Positions 48,436-63,388 of a stretch of DNA of 64,000 nt are shown in pieces. The stretch is from positions 2,025-66,024 of the forward strand of contig RFZB01000001.1 of assembly GCA_009920915.1 (NCBI GenBank). Direction: 5' to 3'. A program made the position numbers and the translations under genes. Position 1 is the first letter of the stretch. Every line of letters begins with the position of its first letter. This stretch comes from Sphingomonadaceae bacterium (GTDB lineage Bacteria; Pseudomonadota; Alphaproteobacteria; Sphingomonadales; Sphingomonadaceae). The notes under the pieces are model-generated. The model was not told the DNA's origin, searched no databases, and saw only the letters and a list, made by a program, of their open reading frames with translations.

Positions 48436-49389
48436 ATGAAGATCGGTTTTATCGGCCTTGGCAATGTTGGTGGCAAGCTCGCCGGCAGCTTGATCCGCAA
48501 CGGCCATGACGTAACAGTGCGCGATCTCGATCCAGCGCTGGTGGCAGATTATGTAGGTCGCGGCGCTAAATCCGCAGCATCCCCGCGTGAGTTGGGCGAA
48601 GCGGTGGACATCATCATCACTTGCTTGCCCTCGCCAGCGGCCAGCGCGGCTGTTGCCGAAGGGGAAGATGGCTTTCTTCAGATCATGCGCCCCGGCCAGG
48701 TCTGGATGGAAATGAGCACGACCGATTATGAGGAAGTGATCCGCCTTGGTGCGCTGGTTGAGGCGCGCGGCGCGATGTTCATGGAATGCCCGGTTTCCGG
48801 TGGGTGTCACCGTGCGGACACCGGCAATATTGCCATTTTTGCAGGCGGGCCTCGCGCCGCTTTTGAGTATGTTTTGCCGGTATTGACGACCATGGGCCGG
48901 CGCATTTTGCACACCGGAGACTTGGGCACGGCATCACAGTTGAAGGTGATGACCAACTATTTGTGCACGGTCCACCTCGTCGCGCTGGCTGAAGCGTTGA
49001 CGACCTGCAAGGCCATTGGCCTGGATATGAACACAACGTATGAGGCGATTAAAATCTCGTCCGGCAACAGCTTTGTTCACGAGACAGAGAGCCAGGTTAT
49101 CCTGAACGGCAGCCGCGATATCAACTTCACCATGGATTTGGTCTCAAAGGACATCGGTCTGTTCGATAAGATTGCACAAGGTGCTGGCGTTCCCGTCGAA
49201 ATGTCGCCGCTGATTGTGCGCCTGTTTAAGGAAGCTGAGGCGGCGTACGGCCCCCGGGAATTTTCACCCAATATCATCCGCCGGTATGAAGAGCCGCTGG
49301 GGATTAAGGTTCTCGGCACCGGCTTTCCTGCACAAATGGTTGATGATGAGCCTGAAGAGCCGGGCTATGAGGTCGTCCCCAAACGCTAA
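48436..49389 (+). CDS. NAD(P)-dependent oxidoreductase, beta-hydroxyacid dehydrogenase (3-hydroxyisobutyrate DH) family
   Basis: GFIGLGNVG, EMSTT, ECPVSGG and catalytic-Lys context QLKVMTNY. Confidence 0.9.
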   Translation: MKIGFIGLGNVGGKLAGSLIRNGHDVTVRDLDPALVADYVGRGAKSAASPRELGEAVDIIITCLPSPAASAAVAEGEDGFLQIMRPGQVWMEMSTTDYEEVIRLGALVEARGAMFMECPVSGGCHRADTGNIAIFAGGPRAAFEYVLPVLTTMGRRILHTGDLGTASQLKVMTNYLCTVHLVALAEALTTCKAIGLDMNTTYEAIKISSGNSFVHETESQVILNGSRDINFTMDLVSKDIGLFDKIAQGAGVPVEMSPLIVRLFKEAEAAYGPREFSPNIIRRYEEPLGIKVLGTGFPAQMVDDEPEEPGYEVVPKR

Positions 49390-49407
49390 ACGGGTAAAGG
49401 CGGCGTT

Positions 49408-50913: not shown

Positions 50914-51834
50914 TTTGCGCGCGTCGGCAACATTGCGGACCACCCAGTCCATGAAGGTCCGGATGCGCAAGTTTTCCCTCATGTCTTTGCGGCAGATAAG
51001 GCCCCAGGCGCCGGGGCAGAGGGCCTTGTGTGAAATTGGCTGAACCAAGCGGCCTGTGGCAAGGTCTTGTTCAACAAAGGGGCCATTGACCAAGGCAATG
51101 CCTTCGCCATTTAGGGCCATTTCCAGCGCGACGGCCAGTGTGTCGACCATGAGAAATGGCGCCGCAGGCTGAAAGGTGCCGCCCGCTGATGTGACCCAAG
51201 TTTCCCAGTTTTGAACCTCGGTATAGATGGCGACCAGAGGCTGCGCCATCAGCGCGTCAATGGTGACGGGAGTGTCAATTTTGGCCAGAAAGTCTGGGCT
51301 GCACACGGGGTAAAGTGCATAATCAAACAGCGGTTCCCAATGATATTTCGCCGGGTTGGGCAAGTCTTCGCAATAGACCAACCCAACATCTGCATGAACA
51401 TCATCAAAATCCCAATCGACGGCGCAGGTGCTTAGCGTCAGTTTGACTTCGGGATGGTCATGCAAAAATTGTGGCACGCGCTTGGCCAGCCAGCGGATAG
51501 AGGCTGTGACATAGGTCTGCACGCGCAACGGTTTATCCAATGCAGTGCGGTGGACCGCCTCAACGCCTTCCAAAAGAGATTCAAAAGCGCTGCGAACATA
51601 GGGGTAAAGAACACGGCCTGCCTCTGTTGACACAATATGGCGGCCTTCTTGCGCGAACAAAGTGACCCCCAGTGCCTCTTCAATCAACTGGACTTGATGG
51701 CTGACAGCGGGGTGCGTCAGGCAAAGCTCGTCCGCGGCTTCACGAATGCTTTGATGCCGGGTTGCTGCCTCAAAACCGCGAAGTGCCTTTAACGGCGGCA
51801 GTTTTCTAAGTTCGATTTTGTTCTGCACCATCAT
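50890..51834 (-). CDS. LysR-family transcriptional regulator (GcvA type)
   Basis: LPPLKALRGFEAATRHQSIREAADELCLTHPAVSHQVQLIEEALGVTLF. Confidence 0.92.
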   Translation of the reverse strand: MMVQNKIELRKLPPLKALRGFEAATRHQSIREAADELCLTHPAVSHQVQLIEEALGVTLFAQEGRHIVSTEAGRVLYPYVRSAFESLLEGVEAVHRTALDKPLRVQTYVTASIRWLAKRVPQFLHDHPEVKLTLSTCAVDWDFDDVHADVGLVYCEDLPNPAKYHWEPLFDYALYPVCSPDFLAKIDTPVTIDALMAQPLVAIYTEVQNWETWVTSAGGTFQPAAPFLMVDTLAVALEMALNGEGIALVNGPFVEQDLATGRLVQPISHKALCPGAWGLICRKDMRENLRIRTFMDWVVRNVADARKSGEVEPG

Positions 51835-51875: not shown

Positions 51876-51892
51876 CGGTAAATTAAATTCAC
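51876..51892. promoter_or_regulatory. LysR box GTAAATTAAATTCAC (T-N11-A) upstream of the GcvA-type regulator
   Basis: CGGTAAATTAAATT (14 bp) is identical at 51876-51889 and 62394-62407. Confidence 0.6.
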
Positions 51893-53517
51893 GCTTTGTC
51901 GGCGCGATCCTCTAAGATCATGGCAGCTGCTTTTTCTGCAACCATCACCGTCGGCGCGTTGATGTTGCCCGAAGTAATGGTCGGGAAAATCGACGCATCA
52001 ACCACACGAAGGCCCTGAACGCCGTAAACCCGCAATCTGGTGTCAACGACGGCCGTTTTGGGGTCATTGCCCATCATGCAAGTTGAGGTTGGGTGATAAA
52101 CTGTATCTGCCCGCTGCCGAAAATCTTCCAAAAACGCGTCATCCCCTTGCAAATGGGCGCCGGGCACCAGCTCTTGCGTAATGATATCAGCCAAGGGGGA
52201 GGTGCGCGCCAAGGCACGCAGCATACGGGTGCCAGCAATTGCCTCCTCAATATCCAGCTGCGTGGTCAAATAATTCGGCTGGATGCTGGGATATTCAAAA
52301 GGATCCGCAGATTTCAGGTGAATCCAGCCTCGGCTGGTCGGTCGGCAGCTATTGAACGACAGCAAAAACGCGGAAAATGGGTCAGGATTCAACAGCTTTC
52401 GTTCAGACAGCGGAGTTCCGGTGTAGCTGACCGGGCTGAAATAAAGCTGCAGATTGACGCGAGGCGCGTCTGGATGGCTGCGGACAAACCCGCCTCCTTG
52501 ATTGACGCTCATGGAAAGGGGGCCGCCGCGATCCCAAAGATAGCGCAGGCCAGCCTTAATTTTGCCTGTCAAGGGTCGCAGTTCATCATTCAGGGTCGGC
52601 ACTGATGTTTTGTAGAAATAGCTAACGGCCAGATGATCCTGCATATTCTGGCCTACAGCCGGTGCATCGCTGAGAACCTCAATGCCCAAAGACTTGAGAT
52701 GGTCTGCTCGCCCAATCCCCGAAAGATTGAGCAATTGGGGCGAGTTGATGGATCCGCCTGAAAGGATGATTTCTGACCTTGCCCAAACCTGTTTGAGCGA
52801 GGTGCCGTGGCGATATTCCACGCCAATGGCGCGCTTGCCCTCAAATAAAATGCGCGTTGCATGGCTTTTCGTGCGCAACGTTACGTGGCCGTTGCGCAGG
52901 GCCGGGCGAAGATATTCATTAGCCGTTGAGGCGCGGCGCCCTTTGCGCGTGTTGATTTGATAAATGCCAACGCCTTCACCATCAGGCGCATTAAGATCAG
53001 GCGCAAAGGGAAGGTGGAGGGCCTTGCCCGCTGCGATAAATGTCTGACACAGCGGATGTGCATGGGCGCTGATGTCTGTCACATGCTGCGGCCCGCCCGC
53101 GCCGTGATAGGCGCTTTCGCCCAGATCATGATCTTCGGCTTGTTTGAAATAGGGAAGAACATCGTTCCAACCCCACCCAGCATTGCCAAGCGCCGCCCAA
53201 TCGTCAAAATCATGCGGCTGGCCCCGCACATGGACCATCGCATTGATCGAGCCAGAGCCGCCAATAACCTTACCACGCGGCCAATAGCTTTCTCGGCCCC
53301 CCAGGCCGGGGACGGCCTCAGTATCGTACATCCAATTGATTTTACGATCAAAAAAGGTTCGGCCATAGCCAATTGGCAGTTGAATCCAGACAGTCTGATC
53401 TGAGCCACCTGCTTCCAACAGCAAGACGCGCGTCTTGCCATCTGCCGACAGGCGATTGGCAAGCACACAGCCTGCGGTGCCAGCACCGACAATGACATAG
53501 TCGAACGTTTCGGTCAT
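51889..53517 (-). CDS. GMC-family flavin oxidoreductase (choline-dehydrogenase-like paralog, different substrate likely)
   Basis: IVGAGTAGCVLANRLS, PRGKVIGGSGSIN, VGQNMQDHL, YHPTSTCMMG and GNINAPTVMVAEK. It lacks the BetA-typical QAHVG segment. Confidence 0.9.
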   Translation of the reverse strand: MTETFDYVIVGAGTAGCVLANRLSADGKTRVLLLEAGGSDQTVWIQLPIGYGRTFFDRKINWMYDTEAVPGLGGRESYWPRGKVIGGSGSINAMVHVRGQPHDFDDWAALGNAGWGWNDVLPYFKQAEDHDLGESAYHGAGGPQHVTDISAHAHPLCQTFIAAGKALHLPFAPDLNAPDGEGVGIYQINTRKGRRASTANEYLRPALRNGHVTLRTKSHATRILFEGKRAIGVEYRHGTSLKQVWARSEIILSGGSINSPQLLNLSGIGRADHLKSLGIEVLSDAPAVGQNMQDHLAVSYFYKTSVPTLNDELRPLTGKIKAGLRYLWDRGGPLSMSVNQGGGFVRSHPDAPRVNLQLYFSPVSYTGTPLSERKLLNPDPFSAFLLSFNSCRPTSRGWIHLKSADPFEYPSIQPNYLTTQLDIEEAIAGTRMLRALARTSPLADIITQELVPGAHLQGDDAFLEDFRQRADTVYHPTSTCMMGNDPKTAVVDTRLRVYGVQGLRVVDASIFPTITSGNINAPTVMVAEKAAAMILEDRADKA

Positions 53518-54701
53518 TGAACTGGGTGCTGTGTCATCTCGAGGTGCAGCATCGTGCCCGTATAGGGATTTGCGCGGGCAACCTCTTCATTCAGTTCTAC
53601 GCCAAGGCCCGGTGCGGTTGGGGGGATGACATGGCCATTCTCAAACTGGATCGGCGTCTTTAAAATTTCACTGTGGAAACCGCCCCAATCCTCAATGCTC
53701 TCTAGGATCAAGAAATTGGGAGAACAGGTCGCAATCTGGATATTGGCCGCGCCGACAATTGGCCCGCAGTATAAATGCGGCGCAATCTGCGCATGATATA
53801 CTTCAGCCATGCCGGCGATTTTCTTGGCTTCTAAAATGCCGCCAACGCGCCCCAAATTCATCTGAAGGATGGCAGCACCCCCCGCCTTTAAAAGGCGAGC
53901 AAAATCATATTTCGTGGTCAGCCGTTCCCCCGTTGCAATGGGAATGCTGGTGCCGCGGGCAACTTTGGCCATTTCTTCGGGAGCATCGGGCGGCACAGGC
54001 TCTTCCAGCCACAGCGGATCATAAGGCTCAAGCCGCTTGGCAAGACGAATGGCACCCGCCGCCGTCATTTGCCCATGCGTGCCGAAAAGCAGATCCGCCT
54101 TATTGCCAACCGCGGCGCGCAGTTGCTTACAGAAACGTTCAGACAGATCGAGCGCCTCTAGCGACAATTGGCGCCCATCAAACGCAGAATAAGGGCCGGC
54201 TGGATCAAATTTCAGCGCCGTAAAGCCCTGTGACAGGTAAAGCGCGGCCCGTTCGGCTGCCAAATCGGGATCATGATAGACATCCGTTTTGTCGCCCGGT
54301 CGCGGATAGATATAGGTGTAGGACCGAAGCCGCTCATGCACCTGCCCACCCAATAGCTTGTAGACAGGTTGATTGGCAGCTTTGCCCACAATGTCCCAGC
54401 AGGCCATTTCCAGAGCCGACAATACGCCCATGAGTGTCAGGTCTGGGTGTTGCGTAAACCCGCTTGAGTACACGCGCCGCCATATGGACTCGATATTGTG
54501 CGGATCATGCCCAGCCAAATAGCGAGCAAAAACATCCTCGATCATCTTCGCGACCAGATGCGGCTCAAATGGCACGCAATAGGCTTCACCCACGCCAGAT
54601 AGGCCATCATCGGTCGTCATTTTGACGAACACGAAATAGCGGCCACCGAAATGGGGCGGGGGATTACCAACAACAAAGGTTTCGATATCAGTCAGCTTCA
54701 T
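53514..54701 (-). CDS. enolase-superfamily enzyme, mandelate racemase / acid-sugar dehydratase (DgoD-like) subgroup
   Basis: GVGE, ALKFDP, metal-ligand contexts THGQ / WLEEP / TGERL, and general-acid/base APHLYCG. Start at ATG 54701. Confidence 0.9.
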   Translation of the reverse strand: MKLTDIETFVVGNPPPHFGGRYFVFVKMTTDDGLSGVGEAYCVPFEPHLVAKMIEDVFARYLAGHDPHNIESIWRRVYSSGFTQHPDLTLMGVLSALEMACWDIVGKAANQPVYKLLGGQVHERLRSYTYIYPRPGDKTDVYHDPDLAAERAALYLSQGFTALKFDPAGPYSAFDGRQLSLEALDLSERFCKQLRAAVGNKADLLFGTHGQMTAAGAIRLAKRLEPYDPLWLEEPVPPDAPEEMAKVARGTSIPIATGERLTTKYDFARLLKAGGAAILQMNLGRVGGILEAKKIAGMAEVYHAQIAPHLYCGPIVGAANIQIATCSPNFLILESIEDWGGFHSEILKTPIQFENGHVIPPTAPGLGVELNEEVARANPYTGTMLHLEMTQHPVQ

Positions 54702-56136
54702 GCTGGATAAACCCATTGATAACTTTGATTTCTAGGAAGTCGTGAAGGCCAAAAACGCCCCATTCACGGCCATTGCCTGATTGTTTATACCCCCCAAAGG
54801 GAGAGCAATAATCTTGCCCGGCGCCATTGAGGTAAATGCTGCCAGCACGAATTTTGCGCGCGACGCGGCGTGCGCGTTCTAAATCGCCAGACTGAATATA
54901 GCCGGCAAGGCCATAGGGCGTGTCATTCGCAATGCGAACTGCCTCCGCCTCATCCTGAAAAGGAATCATCACCAGCACAGGCCCAAAGATTTCTTCCTGC
55001 GCAATCGTCATCTTATTGTGCACATGGGCAAAGATTGTTGGCTTTACATAATAGCCACGGTCAAAGCCCTCGGCGCGCCCAAGGCCACCCGCCACAAGAT
55101 GTGCGCCTTCATCAATGCCAGCTTTGATCAGCGCCTGAATCTTATCAAATTGTGCTTTGCTGACTACGGGGCCTAGATGTGGCCCTTTTTCCATGGGATC
55201 GCCCAGCGTCACACCCGCCGCAACGCGGGCTGCAATTTCAACTGCGGCGTCATAGGCTGACGCCTCGACCAGCATTCGGGTTGGCGCATTGCAGGATTGG
55301 CCTGTGTTGCCGAAACAGTGCAGGATACCGCGGGTCACAGCAGCGTCCAGCCCGGCATCGGCAAAAATGATATTGGCCGATTTGCCGCCAAGCTCTTGAG
55401 AAACACGTTTTACCGTGTCTGCCGCAGATTTCGCGATTTGGATCCCGGCGCGTGTTGACCCAGTAAAGGACACCATATCCACGTCTGGGTGGCCGGTCAG
55501 GGCATCACCGATCATGGCGCCTGTGCCATGAACCATGTTGAAGACGCCAGTTGGAAAGCCTGCCTCGTCGATAAACTCGGCAAAAAGCTGGGCCGAAAGC
55601 GGCGAAATTTCGCTGGGTTTCAGCACCATCGTGCACCCCGCAACAAGTGCGGGCCCGATTTTCGCTGCGAGTTGATTGATAGGCCAGTTCCAAGGCGTAA
55701 TCAGCACGCAGACGCCCACAGCTTCATAGGTTAGATTGCCAGTTGAGCCGATTGGGCTGTCCCAATTCATGCTGCGTGCAGCGCGGACGGTTTCCTTCAA
55801 ATGCCCCGGGCCGCATTCCGCCTGTGCGTTGAACGACAGATCATAAGGGGCGCCCATTTCCGTTGAAATGGCTGAGACCATTTCGTCATAGCGCCGCTCA
55901 AAAATGCCGATCAGCTTTTCAACAAGCGCGAGCCTGTTCTCAAGTGGCAGTGCGGAATAGGCATCAAAGGCGGCGCGGGCGGCCTGAACGGCACGGTCCA
56001 CATCGTCAGGCCCGCATAAGGCAATGATCGCGCAAGGCTCTTCCGTTGCGGGGTTAATCGCCTCAAGCGTTTGCGTTGAAGTTAGCGGCGCAACCCACTG
56101 TCCATTAATGTAGGATTTTAGGGGTGTATCAAACAT
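54688..56136 (-). CDS. NAD-dependent aldehyde dehydrogenase
   Basis: ITPWNWP, LKPSE, FTGSTRAG, QELGGKS, catalytic NTGQSCNAPTR and EEIFGPV. Start at ATG 56136, overlapping the MFS stop. Confidence 0.93.
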   Translation of the reverse strand: MFDTPLKSYINGQWVAPLTSTQTLEAINPATEEPCAIIALCGPDDVDRAVQAARAAFDAYSALPLENRLALVEKLIGIFERRYDEMVSAISTEMGAPYDLSFNAQAECGPGHLKETVRAARSMNWDSPIGSTGNLTYEAVGVCVLITPWNWPINQLAAKIGPALVAGCTMVLKPSEISPLSAQLFAEFIDEAGFPTGVFNMVHGTGAMIGDALTGHPDVDMVSFTGSTRAGIQIAKSAADTVKRVSQELGGKSANIIFADAGLDAAVTRGILHCFGNTGQSCNAPTRMLVEASAYDAAVEIAARVAAGVTLGDPMEKGPHLGPVVSKAQFDKIQALIKAGIDEGAHLVAGGLGRAEGFDRGYYVKPTIFAHVHNKMTIAQEEIFGPVLVMIPFQDEAEAVRIANDTPYGLAGYIQSGDLERARRVARKIRAGSIYLNGAGQDYCSPFGGYKQSGNGREWGVFGLHDFLEIKVINGFIQHEAD

Positions 56137-57427
56137 AGCCAACTGCCCGCTTCTGATCTTCAATGATGTATTTTTCAGCCCGCCAATAATGCCAAGCCGC
56201 CCAGAAGCCGCTGGGTGCAAGGATTAGCTGCGCCAGACGCAGTGAGTCTGCATCTGCGCCCGCCGGACCAGCAAAATAATCACTCAACGCCCCGACAAGG
56301 CCGGGCGCCACGATCAGATTTAGGACATTAGCAATCAGCAAAGAGATGGCAATTGCCATGGCCCGCATATTGGGGGCTGCCAAATTCTGGCACAGCGCCA
56401 TTGCAGGGCCAATATAGAAATAGATGGTTGGGATGAACAGCCACCACATAATCTTCGCAACGGCCAAGTCATGCGTCCAATAGGCATAGAAGGAAGGCAG
56501 CGTTCCCAATGCGGTGACCACAGCCAACAGCCGGGCGATGCGGCGCGGGTCAGCATAGCTGGGCCGCGCAACAACCCAAGCGGTCACCAGCGATGCCCCA
56601 ATGCCGCCGATGAGGTAAATTTCCCCCAGCAAACGGCCTGCTTCCCCTTCATTCATGCCATAGGTCCGCTGCAGGAAGAGGGGGGTGAACCACATCAAGC
56701 CCCAGCCCCAAAAGGCAGACAAGCCCGCGCCCATCATGCCATGAACGGCGGATTTCTGAGACCAGAGAAACTTGAGTGTTTCCATTACAGTAGCCGCTTT
56801 GTCTCCCGAAACAGCGTCGAGCCGGCCACGTTTGGGTTCTTTAATGGTCACGAGAATGATGACAGCTAGGATGATGCCAGGAATGCCCAGAACCAAAAAG
56901 GCCGAGCGCCAGCCATGATTGGTCGATACAAGGCCCGCAATGTCTGAGCCCAGCCATGCCCCAATAGGCGCGCCTAAGGCGAAAATTGTCATTGCCATTG
57001 AACGACGATCAGCTGGAAAATAATCGGCAATAATGGAGTTGCAGGCCGGGGTGCCGCCGGCTTCGCCCACGCCCACGCCAATGCGCGCCAGTAACAGGTC
57101 AAAATAGCCCCGTGTGTACCCCGTCAGCGCTGTCATGGCGGACCATGCAGCAACCGAGGCCGCCAGCAGCTTTTTCCGGTTGGTCCGGTCTGTCAGCCAG
57201 GACAGGGGTATGCCCATGATGACGTAAAAGAGCGCCAATGGAATGCCGAGTGACGCGGCGCCAGTATCGCTTAAATTGAGTTCTTCGCTAATTGGTCCCA
57301 ACAATGTGGAGAGGACATAACGATCTGCAATGCTAATCGTATAGACAAGCATCATGATGAAAAGGACATACCAGCGCTGGCCCAGCGTTGATACGGTGTC
57401 GGCGTCTACAGGATTTTGAGTTGCCAT
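56129..57427 (-). CDS. MFS transporter, spinster-like
   Basis: ADRYVLSTLLGPI, DRTNRKKLLA, RIGVGVGEAGGTP, IADYFPADRR and HGWRSAF. Confidence 0.9.
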   Translation of the reverse strand: MATQNPVDADTVSTLGQRWYVLFIMMLVYTISIADRYVLSTLLGPISEELNLSDTGAASLGIPLALFYVIMGIPLSWLTDRTNRKKLLAASVAAWSAMTALTGYTRGYFDLLLARIGVGVGEAGGTPACNSIIADYFPADRRSMAMTIFALGAPIGAWLGSDIAGLVSTNHGWRSAFLVLGIPGIILAVIILVTIKEPKRGRLDAVSGDKAATVMETLKFLWSQKSAVHGMMGAGLSAFWGWGLMWFTPLFLQRTYGMNEGEAGRLLGEIYLIGGIGASLVTAWVVARPSYADPRRIARLLAVVTALGTLPSFYAYWTHDLAVAKIMWWLFIPTIYFYIGPAMALCQNLAAPNMRAMAIAISLLIANVLNLIVAPGLVGALSDYFAGPAGADADSLRLAQLILAPSGFWAAWHYWRAEKYIIEDQKRAVGYV

Positions 57428-57441
57428 TATTTACCCTCTCA

Positions 57442-59466
57442 TCATCGTGCCAATTCCGGCCCTAAAACGTCGCGTAATGGGTCAAGATATGGCGAGAAAT
57501 TTTCCCACTGATCGACGCCGCTGCGGAACAGTGGCTGGCGCACTTGCTCAGAACTGGCGGTGCGGACAGCGCGTTCAGTCTGGTGGAAGTTGATGCAGGC
57601 TTCTTCAAAGTCGAGGCCACAGAAATCAAGCACGCGGCGCACCTGCGTTTCCAAATCATCAACAACGTCTTCATACTGAACTTTGAGGACCTTGCCGGGC
57701 AGAACCTTGTCCCAATGATCCATCAGCGCGACATAGTCTTTGTAATAATGGCCAATTTCCTCAAGGCCGTAGGTGAATTCCTGCCCCTCGGCGAACAATT
57801 GTTTAAACCCAGAAAAGCAGCAGCCCATTGCACTGCGACGCGCATCAATGATTTTTGCATTGGGCAGGATCATGTGGATCAGGCCAATATGCCGAAAATT
57901 ATTGGGCATTTTATCAATGAAAAAGGGCTTGTTGGTTTTGCGGTGAATGCGCGTGTCGCGCAAATAGGCTTCGCCAAAGGCCCGAAGGTCGTCGCGCGAC
58001 AATTCGTTGAGATTGGCGGGATAACGCGCTTCTTCTCCAACGCGACGTCGGCCATCCAGCTTGTGCGCAAGGGCCAGAATATTTGGCAACTCCATCGTGC
58101 CTTCCACTTGGCTATGCGAAGCCAGAATTTGCTCTAGCAACGTAGAGCCTGCGCGTGGCAAGCCGAGAATGAAAATGGGGTCCTGCGCTGCAAACCCTGC
58201 GCCGGCCGTATCTGCAAAGAGTTGCGGTGTGCAATGTTCAATCTGCAGACCAATTTCCTTGGAAATCTTCCGCCAATCATACCCAACTTCATCACGTTTT
58301 AGGCGGTTGCCGCGCTCATAATAGTCAAAGGATGTGGCATAATCCCCGCTATCTTCCAGCGCTTTGCCAATGGCGAAGCACAGATGATAGCGATCGACGA
58401 GCTGGGTGGTCGCCTGATCTTCAATGTCGCGCATCTTCGACACGAGGCCCGCGTCAAAGCGATAGGTTTTCAGGTTGGCAAGGCTCCAATACGCGTCGCC
58501 AAAATCGGGGCGGACACGATAGGCTTGGCTATAGGCCTCAATGGCTTCTTGCTGGCGCCCCGTCGTTTTCAGCGCATGGCCCAATGTCAGGTGTACGCTG
58601 GGATTGCCAGGTTGGGCTGCGGCAATAGTCTTATAAATAGACAGCGCTTCATCAAAATTCCCAACGCCCAAGCTCTGATTGGCATAGAGCATTTCAACTT
58701 GCGGATTTTCTGGGTCGTTTTCACGCAGGATTTTAGCTTGTTCGAGGGCCTGCGCAAATTTCTGCCGACTTTGCAGGACTGTTACATAATCAAAGCGGGC
58801 GCCGGGGTTTTCGGGCTCAAGCTCGACTGCGGATTCCAAAAGAAACTCGGCCTCGTCCAGCACGTTAAACTGTGTGCCAATCTGCGCCAGAAGCCGCATG
58901 GCTTCGACATGGTGCCCATGCGTCTGCAAAAAGGCGCGGCACAGCTTTTCCGCCCGCAAGAAACGGCCTTCTTCAATAAGGCTGGCAACTGTCAACAACT
59001 CAGGGGGAAGGGCGCTCCAATATTCGCTCTGAATCTCGGCAAATTCGGCTGCTGCGGTGCGGCCTGCCGCGCGATTGAGGCGCGCAAGCATGTTCCAGCT
59101 GGCGAGCAAGGCGCGATTATGGGCCACTGCATTTTGATAGGCCATCAAAGCGGCAGTGCTATCGCCCATGTCTCTGAGGCAATGGCCCTGTTCCTGATGG
59201 GCACGGCCATTTGCGGGGTTGATGGAGATTAGGCGCTTAACTGTTGCAAGCGCCTCAGCAAATTTACGCTGCGTGCGTTGAGAAACGGCAAGAATGTACA
59301 GCGCATCGCGATTGTCAGGCTGGTCGGCCAAGAGCTGCTGGCAGAGCGTTTCTGACTCTTTGGCTTGCCCCTTTTGCAGCATCTCGCGCGCTTTGGCTGC
59401 GATGGCATCGCTATCAAGGGGGGTAACCGTAACGTTCATGGCCTGCAAATCCTTATCTTGCGGCAA
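57442..59466 (-). CDS. TPR-repeat-containing sulfotransferase-family protein
   Basis: N-terminal helical TPR-like repeats, then PIFILGLPRAGSTLLEQIL (5'-PSB loop), FIDKMPNNF, DARRSAMGCCFS and TASSEQVRQP. Start at 59466 or 59439. Confidence 0.9.
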   Translation of the reverse strand: MPQDKDLQAMNVTVTPLDSDAIAAKAREMLQKGQAKESETLCQQLLADQPDNRDALYILAVSQRTQRKFAEALATVKRLISINPANGRAHQEQGHCLRDMGDSTAALMAYQNAVAHNRALLASWNMLARLNRAAGRTAAAEFAEIQSEYWSALPPELLTVASLIEEGRFLRAEKLCRAFLQTHGHHVEAMRLLAQIGTQFNVLDEAEFLLESAVELEPENPGARFDYVTVLQSRQKFAQALEQAKILRENDPENPQVEMLYANQSLGVGNFDEALSIYKTIAAAQPGNPSVHLTLGHALKTTGRQQEAIEAYSQAYRVRPDFGDAYWSLANLKTYRFDAGLVSKMRDIEDQATTQLVDRYHLCFAIGKALEDSGDYATSFDYYERGNRLKRDEVGYDWRKISKEIGLQIEHCTPQLFADTAGAGFAAQDPIFILGLPRAGSTLLEQILASHSQVEGTMELPNILALAHKLDGRRRVGEEARYPANLNELSRDDLRAFGEAYLRDTRIHRKTNKPFFIDKMPNNFRHIGLIHMILPNAKIIDARRSAMGCCFSGFKQLFAEGQEFTYGLEEIGHYYKDYVALMDHWDKVLPGKVLKVQYEDVVDDLETQVRRVLDFCGLDFEEACINFHQTERAVRTASSEQVRQPLFRSGVDQWENFSPYLDPLRDVLGPELAR

Positions 59467-59540
59467 ATTCTACGAAGATATGAGTGCCAAAGTAAGGACG
59501 TTCGTGTGACGATGTCAGTCTAAAAATATCTGGCAGTGTA

Positions 59541-59579
59541 GAAAAGAAAAATCCCGCCCCATTTTTGGTGGGGCGGGAT
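59541..59579 (-). terminator. intrinsic terminator after the TonB-dependent receptor
   Basis: 11-bp stem ATCCCGCCCCA (59551-59561) / TGGGGCGGGAT (59569-59579) followed on the minus strand by TTTTTCTTTTC. Confidence 0.85.
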
Positions 59580-59590
59580 CTATCAGATGC

Positions 59591-62260
59591 TTACATCTTG
59601 TAAGACAAGCGCAGGCCGATCGTCCTTGGGCGTGACGTGGTCACGCGCAATTCACCATCATTGCCGCTCTTGAAGAGCTCCGGCTTGGCGTTGGTCATGT
59701 TTTCGCCAAACAGCTCAATCGTCCAATTGTCACGGCCAGCGCCAATGGCGGCATTGACCATGGTATAGGCCTTTTGGTCTTCCGACGCACGAACCGGAAC
59801 GATCACGTCACCCGGCTTCACAGTTACGCCGTTATAAACAACGGGAACCTGTGCGACATAACCCAAATGGGCGTTGAAGGTCGGGAACTTGATGTCAACA
59901 TTGTCAAACACCGTTGAGATGCTCTTGCCGACATAGTTCACGCCAGCCTGCACATAAGGACGCAGGCCCGAGGTGGTTTCCCACTCATAACGACCGCGAA
60001 TATTGCCCTGGAATTTGGGGCTCAGCGCAAGCGGGCTGCCAACGGGGCGAAGAACTGAGGCGTTCTTGAGCCATTTTGTCAGCTTCGAGTCATTATAAGA
60101 GAATGCGGAATTGATCGTGAACTCGGGCGTTGCACGCCAAGTCACATCACCTTCAAGACCGCGGATCCGGGCGTTTGTGAAGTTCGTCGTGAACGTCTGG
60201 TTAGAGATGTTCTGATCGAAAATCGTCTGCTGAATGTTCGTCCAATCAATTTGATAGGCCGCAAAATTCAGCTGCATCCGACGATTAAGCAGCGGGAATT
60301 TACCGCCGATTTCATAGTTCTTCACTTCATCCGGAACATAATATTTCAGGCCGTCGCACGCCGCAGTTGTGGCGTTACACGGCTTGCGGTTGAACCCGCC
60401 CGGACGGAAGCCTTCCGAATAGGTTGCATAGACCAGCCCGCCATTGTCGAGCTTGTAGGTCACGTTCCCCTTGAAGATGAAGCCATTATATTTGGCAGGC
60501 GACAGGCCCTTCAACGTCTGGCGAAGATCAGCCGAGATGTTGTAGGTCCGCGGCGGATTTGCACCTGCCGTATAGGTTCCCGTTGCCGGGTTATACACAG
60601 CGCGTGAACCACCAAAGCTACCATTTGACGAACCAACCATTGAGGCCTTTTCGTCATAATAACGTGCACCACCGGCGACCGTCAGCTTTTCCGGAATAAG
60701 GTCGTAAGATACTTCGCCATAGGCGGCCATCTGACGGTCTTTGCGTACGACATCGTTGAAGAAGCCAACTTTGACCGGCTTTACGCCGCCATCAAGCGGT
60801 TGGACCGAAGGATTGGCCGAACGCGGATAGATGAAGCCAGCGGCTGTCTGGAGATACGACCAATCGGTGTTATCTTCGAGACGCAGATCGTCATAGAACA
60901 AGCCAGCCGTTGTCCGGAACCGGTTTTCTGCTGGCGACGTAACGCGAAACTCTTGCGTGAAACGCTTGGTTTTGTTGCGTACCGAATAGCTCTTATTGGG
61001 AGCATAGCAGGTCTTGCCGATGTTTCCGTTGTAAGCGGCCGTGTAATAAACACCGCGATCGCACTCATAATATGGCAGATAGAGGCCGATATTGGAGTAA
61101 GATGCATAATCCGCCACCTGACGGGCATCATGCTTCAAGAACGACCCTGTATAGATCATGTCCAAGGTGCCGAGACGGCCATTCACCGTCCACGTCGTTT
61201 CCGAGAACTTATCTTTCAACTTGTTGGCGCCAAACTGTGTGACCTTCATCGGGCCAACAGCGGGCTCATAATCAAACACGCCATCCGTATCGAGCTGCTG
61301 GCGCATGTGCATCAGGTCAATCGACCAATCATCATTCACTTGATAGGTCGCAGCGATGCGGCCGCCAGAATAGGTGGCGTCGTTGTAGTTATTCTCAACA
61401 AACGCATCGTTGTTGATCGTCTGACGGGTCGGTGCAACATAGGTTGAGCCGGTGCAGTTCACGACACCCGTACAAGACTGGATCGCGCGCAGAACGAGCA
61501 GCGGGTTACCTGTTGGCAACTTGCCGGCAACGCCCACATTGCCATTGAACGGCATCTGATAGGTCGCAGCGACGTTATCAATGTACCCGCCCTGACGGTC
61601 CGAATAGGCGACCAAGCGGATCGCGAACTTGTCCTTGATGACAGGAATGTTCACAAAGCCATTAACGCCTGTGCTTTCTTCGCCACCCTTGGTGAACGAG
61701 TGGCTCGTGTTCACGCCAACGCCAAAATCGCTGAGATTCGGCTTGTTGGTGATGTAACGAATGGCGCCGCCCATTGCGCTGGCGCCGAACAAGGTGCCCT
61801 GCGGCCCCGCCAGCACTTCGACGCGCTGAAGGTCTACCGCGTACACATCAAGGTTACGGCCAACGAGCGATGCCGGCGCGTCATTCACATAAAGCGCGAC
61901 GCTGGGGCTGACCCCGGCGGTCCCGTTAATCTGAATGCCTGCAGTGTCCGTTGAAAGGCCACGAATATAGATTGAGGATGTGCCAGGGCCACGCGATGCC
62001 GCGCGAACATTAGGCAGATATTCGACAAGATCGTCAAAGTTCGCGACGTTCAAGCTCGAGAGGCTGTCGCCACTCAAAGCTTGGATTGCCAGCGGCACCT
62101 TGTTGATGGCTTCTTCACGACGCGTAGCCGTCACAACGATGTCGGGAATCGCACCATCGTCGCTTGTTGCGTTGCTATCCTGCGCAAAGGCTGGGCCGCT
62201 GCCCGCGCCAAATGCGGCAAGAACGATTGTCGCTGTTGATAATTTTAGTAGTGCTTTCAA
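59591..62260 (-). CDS. TonB-dependent outer-membrane receptor
   Basis: TTG start after AAGGGAGA, signal peptide ending AFAQ, TonB box DIVVTATRR, plug motifs IYIRG and VEVLAGPQGTLFGA, and a beta-barrel C-terminus PRTIGLRLSYKM. Confidence 0.95.
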   Translation of the reverse strand: MKALLKLSTATIVLAAFGAGSGPAFAQDSNATSDDGAIPDIVVTATRREEAINKVPLAIQALSGDSLSSLNVANFDDLVEYLPNVRAASRGPGTSSIYIRGLSTDTAGIQINGTAGVSPSVALYVNDAPASLVGRNLDVYAVDLQRVEVLAGPQGTLFGASAMGGAIRYITNKPNLSDFGVGVNTSHSFTKGGEESTGVNGFVNIPVIKDKFAIRLVAYSDRQGGYIDNVAATYQMPFNGNVGVAGKLPTGNPLLVLRAIQSCTGVVNCTGSTYVAPTRQTINNDAFVENNYNDATYSGGRIAATYQVNDDWSIDLMHMRQQLDTDGVFDYEPAVGPMKVTQFGANKLKDKFSETTWTVNGRLGTLDMIYTGSFLKHDARQVADYASYSNIGLYLPYYECDRGVYYTAAYNGNIGKTCYAPNKSYSVRNKTKRFTQEFRVTSPAENRFRTTAGLFYDDLRLEDNTDWSYLQTAAGFIYPRSANPSVQPLDGGVKPVKVGFFNDVVRKDRQMAAYGEVSYDLIPEKLTVAGGARYYDEKASMVGSSNGSFGGSRAVYNPATGTYTAGANPPRTYNISADLRQTLKGLSPAKYNGFIFKGNVTYKLDNGGLVYATYSEGFRPGGFNRKPCNATTAACDGLKYYVPDEVKNYEIGGKFPLLNRRMQLNFAAYQIDWTNIQQTIFDQNISNQTFTTNFTNARIRGLEGDVTWRATPEFTINSAFSYNDSKLTKWLKNASVLRPVGSPLALSPKFQGNIRGRYEWETTSGLRPYVQAGVNYVGKSISTVFDNVDIKFPTFNAHLGYVAQVPVVYNGVTVKPGDVIVPVRASEDQKAYTMVNAAIGAGRDNWTIELFGENMTNAKPELFKSGNDGELRVTTSRPRTIGLRLSYKM

Positions 62261-62370: not shown

Positions 62371-62410
62371 ACAAATGAAGATTTTTTTGACAACGGTAAA
62401 TTAAATTACT
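62371..62410 (-). promoter_or_regulatory. tandem LysR-type operator upstream of the TonB receptor (divergent from purU)
   Basis: The minus strand reads AGTAATTTAATTTACC...AAAAAAATCTTCATTTGT. It shares a 14-mer with 51876 and 21-bp site spacing with 48337. Confidence 0.6.
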
Positions 62411-62530: not shown

Positions 62531-63388
62531 ATGGCGACAGATGCAGATTTTGTCCTGCTGATTTCAAGCGATGACCGCAAAGGTATTGTTGCGGCAGTCG
62601 CAAATTCGATTGTGAGCCAGGACTGCAACATCGTTGAAAGCGCGCAATTTGGCGATGCGTCAACGGGTCGCTTTTTCATGCGCGTGGCGTTTAGCGTCCC
62701 TGCCGGCATGACTTTGGATATGTTTTCAGAGGTTTTTCTGCCGGTCGCGACAGCTTTCCGGCTTGATTGGCGCGTTCATGATCTGAGCCACAAGCTGCGC
62801 GCTATGATCATGGTCAGCCAAGGCGGGCATTGCCTGAACGACTTGCTGTATCGGACATCAACCAACAGGTTGCGGATTGACGTTACCAGCATCGTTTCAA
62901 ACCATCTGACATGGCAACGCCGGGCCGACCATGAAGGGGTGCCTTTCCATCATCTTCCAATTACGCCCGAGAACAAGCTTGAGCAGGAAGCCAAGCTATT
63001 GGCGATGGTGGAAGAGCAGCAGGTCGATCTGATTATTTTGGCGCGCTATATGCAGGTTCTATCAGACCAGCTTTGCCAGAAGTTAGATGGTCGCGTGATT
63101 AACATTCACCACAGCTTTTTGCCTGGGTTTAAAGGGGCTAAACCCTATCACCGGGCGCATGAGCGCGGCGTAAAAATGGTCGGCGCAACAGCGCATTATG
63201 TAACGGCAGATTTGGACGAGGGGCCAATCATCACCCAAGACGTGTCCGTTGTTGACCACGCAGACACCGTGGATGATTTGATTGCACAGGGCCAAGATAC
63301 CGAAAGCCGGGTTTTGGCGCGGGCTGTGAAGCTGCACAGCGAGCATCGGGTCCTGCTGAATGGCAACCGAACCGTTATCTTTAAATAG
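62531..63388 (+). CDS. purU: formyltetrahydrofolate deformylase
   Basis: N-terminal ACT domain DRKGIVAAV...FFMRV, VSQGGHCLNDLL, LARYMQVLS, INIHHSFLPGFKGAKPY and GATAHYVTADLDEGPII. Confidence 0.96.
   Translation: MATDADFVLLISSDDRKGIVAAVANSIVSQDCNIVESAQFGDASTGRFFMRVAFSVPAGMTLDMFSEVFLPVATAFRLDWRVHDLSHKLRAMIMVSQGGHCLNDLLYRTSTNRLRIDVTSIVSNHLTWQRRADHEGVPFHHLPITPENKLEQEAKLLAMVEEQQVDLIILARYMQVLSDQLCQKLDGRVINIHHSFLPGFKGAKPYHRAHERGVKMVGATAHYVTADLDEGPIITQDVSVVDHADTVDDLIAQGQDTESRVLARAVKLHSEHRVLLNGNRTVIFK

What the first reader, a model, noticed from the sequence alone, without database searches (positions are those of the whole stretch)
51889..62260. TonB receptor - sulfotransferase - spinster MFS - ALDH - enolase-superfamily - GMC: an orphan uptake-and-cleavage pathway
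Seen: six co-directional genes; the last five are separated by 14 bp or overlap, and a terminator follows the receptor. Known: GMC + ALDH convert a primary alcohol to a carboxylate, and DgoD-like enolase-superfamily enzymes abstract the alpha-proton of such acids and eliminate the beta-substituent. TonB-dependent uptake implies a scarce or bulky substrate. Inference: the substrate is a hydroxylated quaternary amine. A 3-O-substituted glycerol (deacylated betaine lipid) would be oxidised to the glycerate ether and cleaved to pyruvate plus the free betaine. The K-x-D motif (LKFDP) argues against the K-x-K type HpbD betaine epimerase.
Basis: partly seen in the sequence, partly recalled or inferred. 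Interest (0 to 1): 0.7.

Follow-up and report, generated by a model that had tools for sequence, protein, structure and literature searches.

The report
Orphan alcohol-to-acid cleavage operon, betaine island
A river bacterium carries a conserved, expressed gene set that probably takes up a hydroxylated compound, oxidises it to an acid and splits it with an uncharacterised enolase-family enzyme, beside genes that strip methyl groups from amines; the substrate is still unknown.

Summary
Six co-directional minus-strand genes are present: TonB receptor, TPR-sulfotransferase, spinster-like MFS, ALDH, enolase-superfamily protein (ENOL) and GMC oxidoreductase. A 13-bp-stem terminator follows the receptor. 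The other five genes are joined by a 14-bp gap or by overlaps, and a LysR gene follows.

ENOL is not a standard galactonate dehydratase and not an HpbD-type epimerase. It belongs to an uncharacterised family (about 75% identical to structural-genomics entry 4E5T) with an invariant K-F-D / G-T-H signature, in which the first metal-binding Asp of DgoD is Gly. The GMC is a BetA paralogue that lacks the choline-binding Glu; a true BetA lies elsewhere in the window.

The core of GMC (or Zn-ADH), ALDH and ENOL, often with a HIBADH-like dehydrogenase, recurs in freshwater, marine and soil Proteobacteria. It sits next to N-demethylation genes in at least four arrangements, and next to a sulfoquinovose cluster in Ensifer.

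Best reading (about 0.4): a –CH2OH is oxidised to a 2-hydroxy acid, then beta-elimination yields pyruvate and a released head group. Sulfolactate is the main rival.

The parts
59591..62260 (-). TonB-dependent outer-membrane receptor (889 aa), its own transcription unit
   Evidence: Plug + barrel domains. Signal peptide ending AFA/QD and a TonB-box-like DIVVTA. Contig depth 15-45 in river metatranscriptomes, against 1-6 for the downstream genes.
59549..59581 (-). Intrinsic-terminator-like hairpin after the receptor gene
   Evidence: 13-bp stem with 8 G-C pairs, followed by TTTTTCTTTTC. RNA contig depth drops here.
57442..59439 (-). Cytoplasmic TPR + Sulfotransfer_3 protein (665 aa from ATG 59439)
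   Evidence: Sulfotransfer_3 at 171.7 bits plus TPR repeats. No signal peptide, and a PSB-like loop GLPRAGSTLL. Its identity covaries with the receptor's (r = 0.93 over 38 loci).
56129..57427 (-). Spinster-like MFS inner-membrane transporter (432 aa)
   Evidence: MFS_1. Best PDB hit is HnSpns 6E8J at 1.4e-43, then SPNS2 and SPNS1. Orthologues at 48-58% identity sit next to ENOL in Gammaproteobacteria.
54688..56136 (-). Aldehyde dehydrogenase ALDH1 (482 aa)
   Evidence: Aldedh at 505 bits. Below every NCBIfam cut-off; BADH scores 421 against 669. 38% identical to E. coli BetB. Start codon.
53514..54701 (-). Enolase-superfamily enzyme ENOL (395 aa), an uncharacterised K-F-D / G-T-H family
   Evidence: MR_MLE_N + MR_MLE_C. 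623 bits to 4E5T and 595 bits to 4E4U, both structural-genomics entries without a named function. 38% identical to DgoD, with D183 replaced by G and D258 by N. The signature is invariant in 136 sequences.
51889..53517 (-). GMC flavoprotein alcohol dehydrogenase/oxidase, a BetA paralogue
   Evidence: GMC_oxred_N/C. 556 bits against the 605-bit cut-off for choline dehydrogenase. QDHLA instead of QDHLE. Best PDB hit is the chloramphenicol oxidase 8B7S.
50890..51834 (-). GcvA-type LysR regulator with its own promoter-like element
   Evidence: HTH_1 + LysR_substrate. GcvA subfamily at 225 bits. The spacer TTTAATTTACC[AG]GT...GCTA is conserved across loci.
47567..50913 (+). Divergent operon: SDR (47567-48331), HIBADH-like beta-hydroxyacid dehydrogenase (48436-49389), ALDH2 (49408-50913)
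   Evidence: Domains. The HIBADH-like gene is 85-96% identical across sphingomonad loci and lies in the same operon as ENOL in marine loci.
40210..47402 (-). Operon of two DAO+GCV_T N-demethylase-type enzymes (44988-47402, 42539-44983), a GbcA-like Rieske oxygenase (41298-42539) and an MDR/Zn-ADH-family reductase (40210-41328)
   Evidence: Domains. Synteny with ENOL in most sphingomonad loci. Homologues of the MDR protein lie near ENOL in Ensifer, Roseovarius, Caulobacteraceae and a gammaproteobacterium.
62531..63388 (+). PurU, formyltetrahydrofolate deformylase, divergent from the receptor gene
   Evidence: 395 bits against a 223-bit cut-off. Conserved at this position in most sphingomonad loci.
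62394..62404 (-). Shared cis element T[AT]AATTTAC[CG]G upstream of the receptor gene
   Evidence: One of only three matches in the 64-kb window, each upstream of and co-oriented with a unit of this locus. It is an exact 13-mer copy of the lysR site.
51876..51886 (-). The same cis element, 52 bp upstream of lysR
47533..47543 (+). The same cis element, 34 bp upstream of the SDR-HIBADH-ALDH2 operon

Best explanation
This is one regulated catabolic locus for a hydroxylated compound whose breakdown feeds methylated-amine metabolism.

Proposed steps:
1. The TonB receptor takes the compound across the outer membrane, and the spinster-like MFS takes it across the inner membrane.
2. The BetA-paralogue GMC enzyme and ALDH1 oxidise a primary alcohol next to a secondary alcohol (a glyceryl-type end) to a 2-hydroxy acid.
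3. ENOL, a DgoD-derived enolase-superfamily enzyme with a remodelled active site, abstracts the alpha-proton and eliminates the substituent on the beta-carbon. This gives enol-pyruvate and the released group.
4. In this bacterium the released group is most likely a choline- or betaine-bearing head group, such as phosphocholine from glycerophosphocholine or a betaine alcohol from a deacylated betaine lipid.
5. The neighbouring SDR / HIBADH-like / ALDH2 operon and the Rieske + two DAO-GCV_T demethylases then process that group, and PurU recycles tetrahydrofolate.

Shown: gene content, operon structure, conservation, expression in rivers, and non-membership of ENOL and the GMC in their named families.

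Inferred: every chemical step and the substrate.
For: Gene structure and coupling.

Conserved synteny of MFS-ALDH-ENOL-GMC-LysR with the HIBADH-like gene in about 60 freshwater alpha- and gammaproteobacterial loci. The core LysR/GMC-ENOL-ALDH(-HIBADH) also occurs in marine Rhodobacterales and Stappiaceae, in Rhizobiaceae plasmids and in Pseudomonas, Burkholderia, Caballeronia and Dyella.

An alcohol-oxidising partner is constant. It is a GMC in 32 of 59 distant loci, and a class-III-like Zn-ADH sits directly upstream of ENOL in others.

In soil bacteria the ALDH is AldA-type, the lactaldehyde/glycolaldehyde dehydrogenase model, at 527 bits against a 500-bit cut-off. That points to a 2-hydroxy-aldehyde intermediate.

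ENOL keeps DgoD's H185, E209, E235, H285 and E310 equivalents, so the alpha-proton-abstraction and elimination machinery is largely present.

There are precedents for the logic. TaoA (a CDH-like GMC) and TaoB (an ALDH) oxidise an amino-polyol to a hydroxy-amino acid, with PurU/FolD in the cluster (PMC10848231). DauA (an ALDH) and DauB (an enolase-superfamily enzyme) open a C3-O ether beta to the carboxylate (PMC5698469); DauB's structure 5OLC matches ENOL at 7.8e-38.

The amine link recurs in independent arrangements:
- Rieske + 2 DAO-GCV_T + PurU here.
- DAO-GCV_T + MttB-family methyltransferase + cobalamin genes next to Zn-ADH-ENOL in SAR116-like loci, and DAO-GCV_T/MttB in a gammaproteobacterium.
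- Rieske + FAD oxidoreductase + ABC transporter beside GMC-ENOL on Leisingera plasmids.

A shared cis element upstream of the receptor gene, lysR and the SDR-HIBADH operon suggests one regulon.

Spinster relatives carry lysophosphatidylcholine and sphingosine-1-phosphate in animals (my own knowledge; similarity).

The whole locus is transcribed in river metatranscriptomes.
Against: - No experiment or paper assigns a function to this ENOL family.
- The first metal ligand of DgoD (D183) is Gly and the dyad Asp is Asn, so the chemistry may differ from a DgoD-like elimination.
- Orthologous operons in Pseudomonas and Burkholderia have no amine genes and a different MFS.
- In Ensifer adhaerens the module adjoins a complete sulfo-ED-type sulfoquinovose cluster, which points to a sulfonate or a sulfoquinovosyl-glycerol.
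- No phosphatase, lipase or glycerophosphodiesterase was seen in the locus.
- The window is one large methylamine island with three Rieske oxygenases, three DAO-GCV_T genes and two SoxAB-like sets. Adjacency within sphingomonads alone would therefore be weak evidence.
- The role of the strongly conserved HIBADH-like enzyme is not explained cleanly.
- The cis element was defined after seeing the sites, so its statistics are inflated.
Confidence: 0.4

Rival explanations
1. A C3-sulfonate pathway. Dihydroxypropanesulfonate (DHPS) is imported and oxidised by the GMC (or the YihU-like HIBADH enzyme) to sulfolactaldehyde, then by the ALDH to 3-sulfolactate. ENOL acts as an enolase-superfamily sulfolactate sulfo-lyase, giving pyruvate and sulfite. 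It would be a non-homologous replacement of SuyAB.
For: On an Ensifer adhaerens plasmid the LysR/GMC-ENOL-ALDH-MFS-HIBADH module lies directly after a full sulfo-ED-type set: ABC transporter, IlvD-family dehydratase, HpcH-type aldolase, SMP-30 lactonase, SDR, GH31 alpha-glucosidase, TauE/SafE exporter and GabD-like dehydrogenase.

Every conserved component gets a role. AldA-type lactaldehyde dehydrogenases suit sulfo-lactaldehyde. The HIBADH family includes sulfolactaldehyde reductase, with 147 bits to PRK15461 and 115 bits to 6SM7. The conserved Arg21 and His/Arg17 in the extended lid loop of ENOL could bind an anionic sulfonate (inference). A thiamine-diphosphate enzyme lies next to the module on Leisingera plasmids. 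The module is common in marine Rhodobacterales, which are known DHPS users (my own knowledge).
Against: The sulfo-ED adjacency was seen in one lineage only. No sulfite exporter or sulfite dehydrogenase was found in the window or in the sphingomonad loci. This model does not explain the repeated adjacency to N-demethylation genes. The TauE gene in Ensifer belongs to the sulfo-ED operon itself.
Confidence: 0.18
2. ENOL acts directly on a betaine-type acid. It would be either a trimethylamine- or amine-eliminating lyase (as methylaspartate ammonia-lyase does within the same superfamily) on a beta-ammonio acid made by GMC + ALDH, or an epimerase playing the part of HpbD.
For: The methylamine context. 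Asp166 replaces the second Lys/Asn of the K-x-K position, and an aromatic-rich lid (F18, Y22, F23, W339, F342) is conserved; these could hold a cationic group (inference). HpbD is a precedent for an enolase-superfamily enzyme in betaine catabolism (PMC3950512 appears; details from my own knowledge).
Against: The closest relatives are GalD/ManD-type dehydratases, not HpbD; relatives of that group such as 4H1Z score only 5e-32. The module occurs without any amine genes in soil bacteria. No trimethylamine-oxidation genes are in the window. The cluster GMC lacks the Glu that binds a trimethylammonium next to the alcohol.
Confidence: 0.12
3. An ordinary small polyol / acid-sugar route. A polyol such as glycerol, or a tetritol, is oxidised to glycerate or a tetronate, which ENOL dehydrates to pyruvate or a 2-keto-3-deoxy acid. 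The HIBADH-like enzyme, the SDR and ALDH2 finish the pathway. The amine genes are only neighbours.
For: 38% identity to DgoD, and best family matches to gluconate/galactonate dehydratases. The HIBADH-like enzyme resembles tartronate-semialdehyde reductase and L-threonate dehydrogenase. AldA-type and glyceraldehyde-dehydrogenase-like scores for the ALDH. The stand-alone operon in soil bacteria.
Against: ENOL is below the curated cut-offs of all dehydratase models. The D183 and D258 equivalents are lost in all 136 members. There are no kinase or aldolase partners of KDG-type pathways. Five solved structures have no assigned activity; to my knowledge such targets were screened on acid-sugar libraries, but I could not check this here. 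The repeated amine context also argues against it.
Confidence: 0.12
4. Not one pathway. The GMC and ALDH1 are a second choline-to-glycine-betaine route, ENOL has an unrelated role, and the receptor/sulfotransferase cassette is an independent insertion.
For: GMC and ALDH1 have their best family scores to BetA and BADH models. The receptor/sulfotransferase pair has been exchanged as a unit in 10 loci and is absent from marine and soil versions.
Against: A bona fide BetA (892 bits against 605) sits beside a BCCT transporter elsewhere in the window. The cluster GMC lacks the QDHLE Glu. ENOL overlaps both of its neighbours translationally, and the GMC-ENOL pair is kept across classes. A shared cis element ties the receptor gene to the rest of the locus.
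Confidence: 0.08

Closest known systems
D-galactonate dehydratase DgoD (E. coli) and the GalD/ManD branch of the enolase superfamily
   Same: Two-domain fold. 38% identity. The equivalents of H185, E209, E235, H285 and E310 are kept. The likely chemistry is alpha-proton abstraction followed by beta-elimination.
   Different: D183 is replaced by Gly, D258 by Asn (mostly), and K-L-N by K-F-D. The lid loop carries an 8-residue insertion. The score is below the family cut-off. There are no dgoK/dgoA partners.
Structural-genomics proteins 4E5T (Labrenzia), 4E4U, 3T4W, 3RCY, 4J3Z
   Same: The same family: 448-623 bits over the full length. The Labrenzia gene sits in the same LysR/GMC-ALDH-ENOL arrangement.
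   Different: None has a named function, so they give a fold but no activity.
DauA/DauB (3,6-anhydro-D-galactose dehydrogenase + 3,6-anhydro-D-galactonate cycloisomerase) and the Vibrio AHG pathway
   Same: An ALDH makes the acid, and an enolase-superfamily enzyme then breaks a C3-O ether bond beta to the carboxylate (PMC5698469). 5OLC matches ENOL at 7.8e-38.
   Different: DauB keeps the canonical Asp/Glu/Glu metal ligands and a Lys/His pair. Its substrate is a sugar acid, and there is no GMC step.
TRIS pathway TaoA/TaoB (PMC10848231)
   Same: A choline-dehydrogenase-like GMC outside the true CDH clade, together with an ALDH, converts a –CH2OH of a polyol to a carboxylate. PurU-type folate recycling is present in the locus.
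   Different: The later steps use a hydroxymethyltransferase and a PLP D-serine dehydratase, not an enolase-superfamily enzyme.
HpbD hydroxyproline-betaine 2-epimerase pathway
   Same: An enolase-superfamily enzyme embedded among Rieske and flavin N-demethylases.
   Different: It has a K-x-K motif and belongs to a different branch. ENOL's best matches are dehydratases. There are no proline-type downstream genes.
Sphingopyxis peg operon for polyethylene glycol (from memory, not tested here)
   Same: A TonB receptor, a permease, a GMC alcohol dehydrogenase and an ALDH in one sphingomonad operon.
   Different: No enolase-superfamily enzyme. It has an acyl-CoA ligase and an AraC regulator.
SuyAB sulfolactate sulfo-lyase / HpsN DHPS pathway (from memory)
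   Same: It would give the same overall conversion if the sulfonate rival is right.
   Different: Unrelated protein families.

Membership tests
Enolase superfamily | N-terminal capping domain plus a C-terminal barrel domain | tested here: met
   MR_MLE_N at 65 bits and MR_MLE_C at 211 bits. Full-length matches to solved members.
Enolase superfamily | Three acidic metal ligands at the ends of barrel strands 3, 4 and 5 | tested here: not met
   The strand-4 and strand-5 Glu residues are kept (E233/E234, E259). The strand-3 Asp (DgoD D183) is Gly207 in all 136 members. Whether Asp166 of K-F-D substitutes for it could not be tested without coordinates.
D-galactonate dehydratase (DgoD) | Score above the curated family cut-off | tested here: not met
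   NF010624 at 257 bits against a 311-bit cut-off; NF040790 at 264 against 750.
D-galactonate dehydratase (DgoD) | His285-Asp258 dyad and the His185 general acid | tested here: inconclusive
   Both His residues are kept (H309, H209). The dyad Asp is Asn in 116, Ala in 14 and Asp in 6 of 136 sequences.
D-galactonate dehydratase (DgoD) | Operon with KDG-type kinase and aldolase | tested here: not met
   None in the window or in about 230 related loci. Compare the E. coli dgo operon.
HpbD betaine epimerase | K-x-K motif and close sequence relationship | tested here: not met
   K-F-D is invariant. No HpbD-named structure is among the 60 best PDB matches shown; the enolase-superfamily entry 4H1Z scores 5e-32, against 1e-186 for 4E5T.
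Choline dehydrogenase BetA | Score above cut-off, and the Glu of the QDHLE motif | tested here: not met
   556 bits against 605, and 464 against 732. QDHLA/G in cluster orthologues, QDHLE in E. coli BetA and in the window's true BetA. The role of the Glu is taken from 10.1101/2022.09.18.508450.
Betaine-aldehyde dehydrogenase BetB (ALDH1) | Score above cut-off | tested here: not met
   421 bits against 669, and 379 against 593. 38% identical to E. coli BetB.
TonB-dependent receptor | Signal peptide, TonB box, plug and 22-strand barrel domains | tested here: met
Spinster-like MFS | Closest solved relatives are spinster proteins | tested here: met
   6E8J at 1.4e-43 and SPNS2 at 1e-19, against DgoT at 1.8e-12. 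The substrate was not tested.
PAPS-dependent sulfotransferase | Sulfotransferase domain with a 5'-phosphosulfate-binding loop | tested here: met
   Sulfotransfer_3 at 171.7 bits. The loop GLPRAGSTLL is read directly from the sequence. Activity and acceptor were not tested.
HIBADH / beta-hydroxyacid dehydrogenase | NAD_binding_2 + NAD_binding_11 domains; a named subfamily | tested here: inconclusive
   The domains are present. The protein is below the cut-off of every named subfamily (HIBADH, L-threonate DH, tartronate-semialdehyde reductase, sulfolactaldehyde reductase).

The most novel reading that the evidence does not exclude
The GMC-ALDH-ENOL module is a hydrolase-independent, oxidative way to strip the glycerol from deacylated membrane-lipid head groups. 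The free –CH2OH of the glyceryl end is oxidised to a carboxylate. A new enolase-superfamily lyase, which lacks the canonical first metal ligand, then expels the head group as the beta-leaving group and leaves pyruvate. The head group would be phosphocholine or a betaine alcohol in freshwater sphingomonads and sulfoquinovose in Ensifer. This would be a widespread, expressed route in freshwater, marine and soil Proteobacteria that links lipid turnover to methylamine and sulfonate cycling.
Probability: 0.22. Interest if true: 0.8.

Novelty: new variant of a known kind. Interest (0 to 1): 0.6.

Why it matters
The ENOL family is large, highly conserved (61-99% identity across classes) and transcribed in rivers. 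It has five crystal structures, yet no function has been assigned to it in the curated family models or in the searchable literature. Its operon partners give a concrete, cheap set of substrates to test.

If the elimination model is right, it adds a new reaction type and a new active-site variant to the enolase superfamily. It would also reveal a route by which abundant planktonic bacteria harvest carbon and methyl groups (or sulfur) from lipid head groups or C3 sulfonates.

If the enzyme turns out to be a plain dehydratase, the locus is still a well-defined case of a BetA paralogue that automatic annotation would call choline dehydrogenase.

Tried and rejected
- **Literature.** Nine full-text searches found no functional assignment. 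They covered the PDB codes, enolase superfamily combined with choline/betaine/Rieske/GMC/sulfolactate/isoserine/glycerophosphocholine, homoserine betaine catabolism, and TonB receptor + sulfotransferase.
- **CmO.** The GMC's best solved relative, chloramphenicol oxidase (8B7S), sits in a different cluster (pnbAB) and says nothing about the native substrate.
- **Choline route.** Reading the cluster GMC and ALDH1 as the choline-to-glycine-betaine route was rejected. A true BetA with a BCCT transporter is elsewhere in the window, and the Glu of the QDHLE motif is missing.
- **HpbD-type epimerase.** Rejected.
- **Cis element.** The strict motif is not conserved beyond close relatives. Only the spacer upstream of lysR keeps a promoter-like TTTACC...GCTA pattern, so no cross-genome regulon could be drawn.
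- **Ruegeria pomeroyi.** The megaplasmid homologue (55% identity) has no GMC or ALDH partner and was set aside as a probable paralogue.
- **Sulfo-ED search.** Homologues of the Ensifer sulfo-ED proteins and TauE were sought in all fetched loci and in the window. None was found outside the Ensifer lineage.
- **OlsA-like acyltransferase.** One lies between the HIBADH-like gene and the SDR in many sphingomonad loci. It was considered as a lipid clue, but it is absent from the window and below its family cut-off.
- **Structure prediction.** Not run. The tool returns no coordinates, so it could not settle whether Asp166 binds the metal.

Full report
**Observation**

ORF listing and domain scans confirm six co-directional minus-strand genes at 51889-62260:
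- a TonB-dependent receptor (Plug + barrel; signal peptide and TonB-box-like stretch);
- a TPR + Sulfotransfer_3 protein;
- an MFS transporter;
- an aldehyde dehydrogenase (ALDH1);
- an enolase-superfamily protein (ENOL);
- a GMC flavoprotein.

Reading the junctions corrects three start codons. ALDH1 starts at ATG 56136 and overlaps the MFS stop by 8 bp. ENOL starts at ATG 54701, giving 395 aa like all homologues, and overlaps the ALDH1 stop by 14 bp. The sulfotransferase probably starts at ATG 59439. ENOL and GMC share an ATGA overlap, and the sulfotransferase and MFS are 14 bp apart.

A 13-bp-stem hairpin with a T-run follows the receptor gene. In three river metatranscriptomes the assembled-contig depth over the receptor is 15-45, against 1-6 over the downstream genes. 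This is a rough measure, but it fits an attenuating terminator. A GcvA-type LysR gene follows GMC on the same strand.

**Surroundings**

The locus is the right-hand part of a large methylated-amine island.
- Divergent from lysR lies an operon of an SDR, a HIBADH-like beta-hydroxyacid dehydrogenase and a second ALDH.
- Next to that, on the minus strand, are two DAO+GCV_T enzymes (dimethylglycine/sarcosine-dehydrogenase type), a GbcA-like Rieske oxygenase and an MDR-family reductase.
- PurU is divergent from the receptor.
- Further left are a third DAO+GCV_T gene, two more Rieske oxygenases, two SoxA/SoxB-like pairs, and a bona fide BetA (892 bits against a cut-off of 605) beside a BCCT transporter.

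An 11-base element, T[AT]AATTTAC[CG]G, occurs exactly three times in the 64 kb. Each copy lies upstream of, and is co-oriented with, a unit of this locus: the receptor gene, lysR and the SDR-HIBADH operon. Base composition predicts about 0.06 matches, but the pattern was defined after seeing the sites. It suggests common control and ties the receptor to the enzymes.

**The enolase-family enzyme**

ENOL is about 75% identical to 4E5T (Labrenzia) and also matches 4E4U, 3T4W, 3RCY and 4J3Z. All are structural-genomics entries named only as family members. It falls below the curated cut-offs of every dehydratase model.

It was aligned to an authentic E. coli DgoD sequence fetched from MG1655 at 38% identity.
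- Kept: the equivalents of H185, E209, E235, H285 and E310.
- Changed: the first metal ligand D183 becomes Gly, the dyad Asp D258 becomes Asn, and K-L-N becomes K-F-D.
- Added: an eight-residue insertion in the lid loop.

Across 136 distinct family members at 61-99% identity, K164, F165, G207, H209, E233/234, E259, H309 and E334 are invariant, and D166 and T208 each differ in a single sequence. Position 282 is Asn in 116, Ala in 14 and Asp in 6. The family is therefore a distinct active-site variant within the GalD branch, not a routine galactonate dehydratase and not an HpbD-type K-x-K epimerase.

**The GMC and the ALDH**

The GMC scores 556 bits against the choline dehydrogenase subfamily model, below the 605-bit cut-off, and is 39% identical to E. 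coli BetA. In an alignment with both BetAs, the cluster GMC and its orthologues from a sphingomonad, Labrenzia and Ruegeria carry QDHL[A/G] where the BetAs have QDHLE. The corresponding Glu of choline oxidase binds the trimethylammonium group, according to the CmO preprint.

The best solved relative of the GMC is that chloramphenicol oxidase, which oxidises a primary alcohol to a carboxylate. ALDH1 is below all family cut-offs.

**Conservation**

Three scans of one-genome-per-species contigs and one scan of plasmids gave about 230 loci.

- Freshwater sphingomonads, Caulobacteraceae and several Gammaproteobacteria keep the order (receptor-sulfotransferase-)MFS-ALDH1-ENOL-GMC-LysR. The HIBADH-like gene is divergent and usually followed by the DAO-GCV_T pair.
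- Marine Stappiaceae and Rhodobacterales, and Rhizobiaceae plasmids, have LysR/GMC-ENOL-ALDH, often with the HIBADH-like gene in the same operon.
- Pseudomonas, Burkholderia, Paraburkholderia, Caballeronia and Dyella have LysR, an AldA-type ALDH (527 bits against 500), a different MFS, ENOL and GMC.
- Among 59 loci whose ENOL is under 80% identical to the window's, a GMC is nearby in 32, a LysR in 29, an ALDH in 22 and a HIBADH-like gene in 18.
- Where the GMC is missing, a class-III-like Zn-ADH often sits directly upstream of ENOL.

The constant theme is an alcohol dehydrogenase, an aldehyde dehydrogenase and ENOL.

**Context clues to the substrate**

N-demethylation genes adjoin ENOL in independent arrangements:
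- Rieske + DAO-GCV_T in sphingomonads and Caulobacteraceae;
- DAO-GCV_T + MttB-family methyltransferase + cobalamin lower-ligand genes in SAR116-like loci;
- DAO-GCV_T and MttB in a gammaproteobacterium;
- a Rieske oxygenase, a 691-aa FAD oxidoreductase and an ABC transporter on Leisingera plasmids.

Against a universal amine link, the soil operons have no such neighbours. On an Ensifer adhaerens plasmid the module follows a complete sulfo-ED-type sulfoquinovose cluster that includes a GH31 glucosidase and a TauE exporter. That adjacency was not seen in any other fetched locus.

The AldA-type ALDH points to a 2-hydroxy-aldehyde intermediate. The MFS in the window is spinster-like. Animal spinster proteins carry lysophosphatidylcholine and sphingosine-1-phosphate (my own knowledge).

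**Mechanism proposed**

The most economical reading covers all contexts. A terminal –CH2OH next to a secondary alcohol is oxidised by GMC (or Zn-ADH) and ALDH to a 2-hydroxy acid. ENOL then removes the alpha-proton and expels the substituent on C3, leaving enol-pyruvate.

Two precedents exist for parts of this scheme. TaoA/TaoB show the GMC + ALDH step on a polyol. DauA/DauB show an ALDH followed by an enolase-superfamily enzyme that breaks a C3-O bond.

The leaving group would differ with context. Here it would be a choline- or betaine-bearing group, which explains the demethylases and PurU. In the rival model it would be sulfonate, as sulfite, from DHPS-derived sulfolactate. The conserved Arg21 and His/Arg17 in the lid loop would suit an anionic phosphodiester or sulfonate (inference).

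The HIBADH-like enzyme may oxidise or reduce the same diol/aldehyde pair, as sulfolactaldehyde reductase does in its family. Alternatively it may act on the released hydroxy-acid. This point is unresolved.

I put 0.4 on the head-group elimination model for this locus, 0.18 on the sulfolactate version, 0.12 on direct action on a betaine acid, 0.12 on an ordinary polyol or acid-sugar route, and 0.08 on unrelated neighbours.

**The receptor/sulfotransferase pair**

The sulfotransferase has no signal peptide and keeps a PSB-like loop, so it is cytoplasmic. Over 38 loci its identity to the window's copy tracks that of the receptor (r = 0.93), but not that of the MFS or ENOL (r about 0.3-0.4).

In 10 loci a paralogous receptor/sulfotransferase pair (about 34% and 49% identity) occupies the same slot, while the MFS (70%) and ENOL (88%) stay orthologous. 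The pair is thus an exchangeable cassette of unknown logic. It is absent from the marine and soil versions of the module.

**Verdict**

The feature is a real, conserved and expressed pathway built around an uncharacterised enolase-superfamily variant. It is directly testable with proteins that already have structures.

Noticed in passing
window 57442-62260; loci L005-L068: The TonB receptor and the cytoplasmic TPR-sulfotransferase behave as a co-inherited cassette. Their identities covary (r = 0.93). In 10 genomes the pair has been swapped for a paralogous pair while the neighbouring MFS and ENOL remain orthologous. I found no literature on this pairing.
   Followed up: partly
window 17090-25373 (minus strand): A separate choline-type operon: BCCT transporter, a bona fide BetA (892 bits), a PF12831 FAD oxidoreductase, an MFS, a LysR and a 435-aa PET-hydrolase-like alpha/beta hydrolase. 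No BetB is adjacent.
   Followed up: partly
window 7260-16609 (plus strand): A third GbcA-like Rieske oxygenase (423 bits) is followed by a cystathionine-gamma-synthase-family PLP enzyme (508 bits against a 504-bit cut-off), FAD/DAO oxidoreductases and a 961-aa SoxA-like protein. This could be a demethylation route ending in a homoserine- or methionine-type amino acid.
   Followed up: no
window 4610-6114: Two overlapping minus-strand ORFs (218 and 324 aa) match the C-terminal and N-terminal halves of Amidohydro_3. This may be a frameshifted or split amidohydrolase gene.
   Followed up: no
window 26366-28627: A SoxA-like protein of 753 aa whose GCV_T match stops at profile position 170 of 255, at the protein's end. 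Its paralogue is 961 aa, so this copy may be truncated.
   Followed up: no
window 929-2692: A type III polyketide synthase (chalcone/stilbene synthase domains) next to a SAM methyltransferase, at the left edge of the amine island.
   Followed up: no
window 34381-40156: A 779-aa transketolase/E1-like protein, an Lrp/AsnC regulator, an amino-acid permease and an omega-aminotransferase that scores 720 bits to the Caulobacter AptA model. This may be beta-alanine or omega-amino-acid handling beside the demethylases.
   Followed up: no
L005 13835-14617; L007 14884-17712 and many sphingomonad loci: An OlsA-like lyso-lipid acyltransferase (146 bits, below cut-off) lies between the HIBADH-like gene and the SDR or demethylase genes. 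In L007 a CN-hydrolase and a GNAT accompany it. It is absent from the window.
   Followed up: partly
L234 (Ensifer adhaerens plasmid NZ_CP118612.1, 60571-73239): A complete sulfo-ED-type sulfoquinovose gene set lies immediately upstream of the LysR/GMC-ENOL-ALDH-MFS-HIBADH module.
   Followed up: partly
window 47533-47543, 51876-51886, 62394-62404: A shared 11-base element upstream of three transcription units. Two of the copies share an exact 13-mer. In other genomes only the lysR-proximal copy is recognisable, as a promoter-like TTTACC...GCTA.
   Followed up: partly
window 53000-60500: The sequence is held almost whole (90-99% of sampled words) in 20 freshwater, estuary, aquatic and marine-plankton metagenome runs from several studies. 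The organism is therefore a widespread planktonic sphingomonad. The closest genome is a river MAG with 99% protein identity for ENOL.
   Followed up: partly
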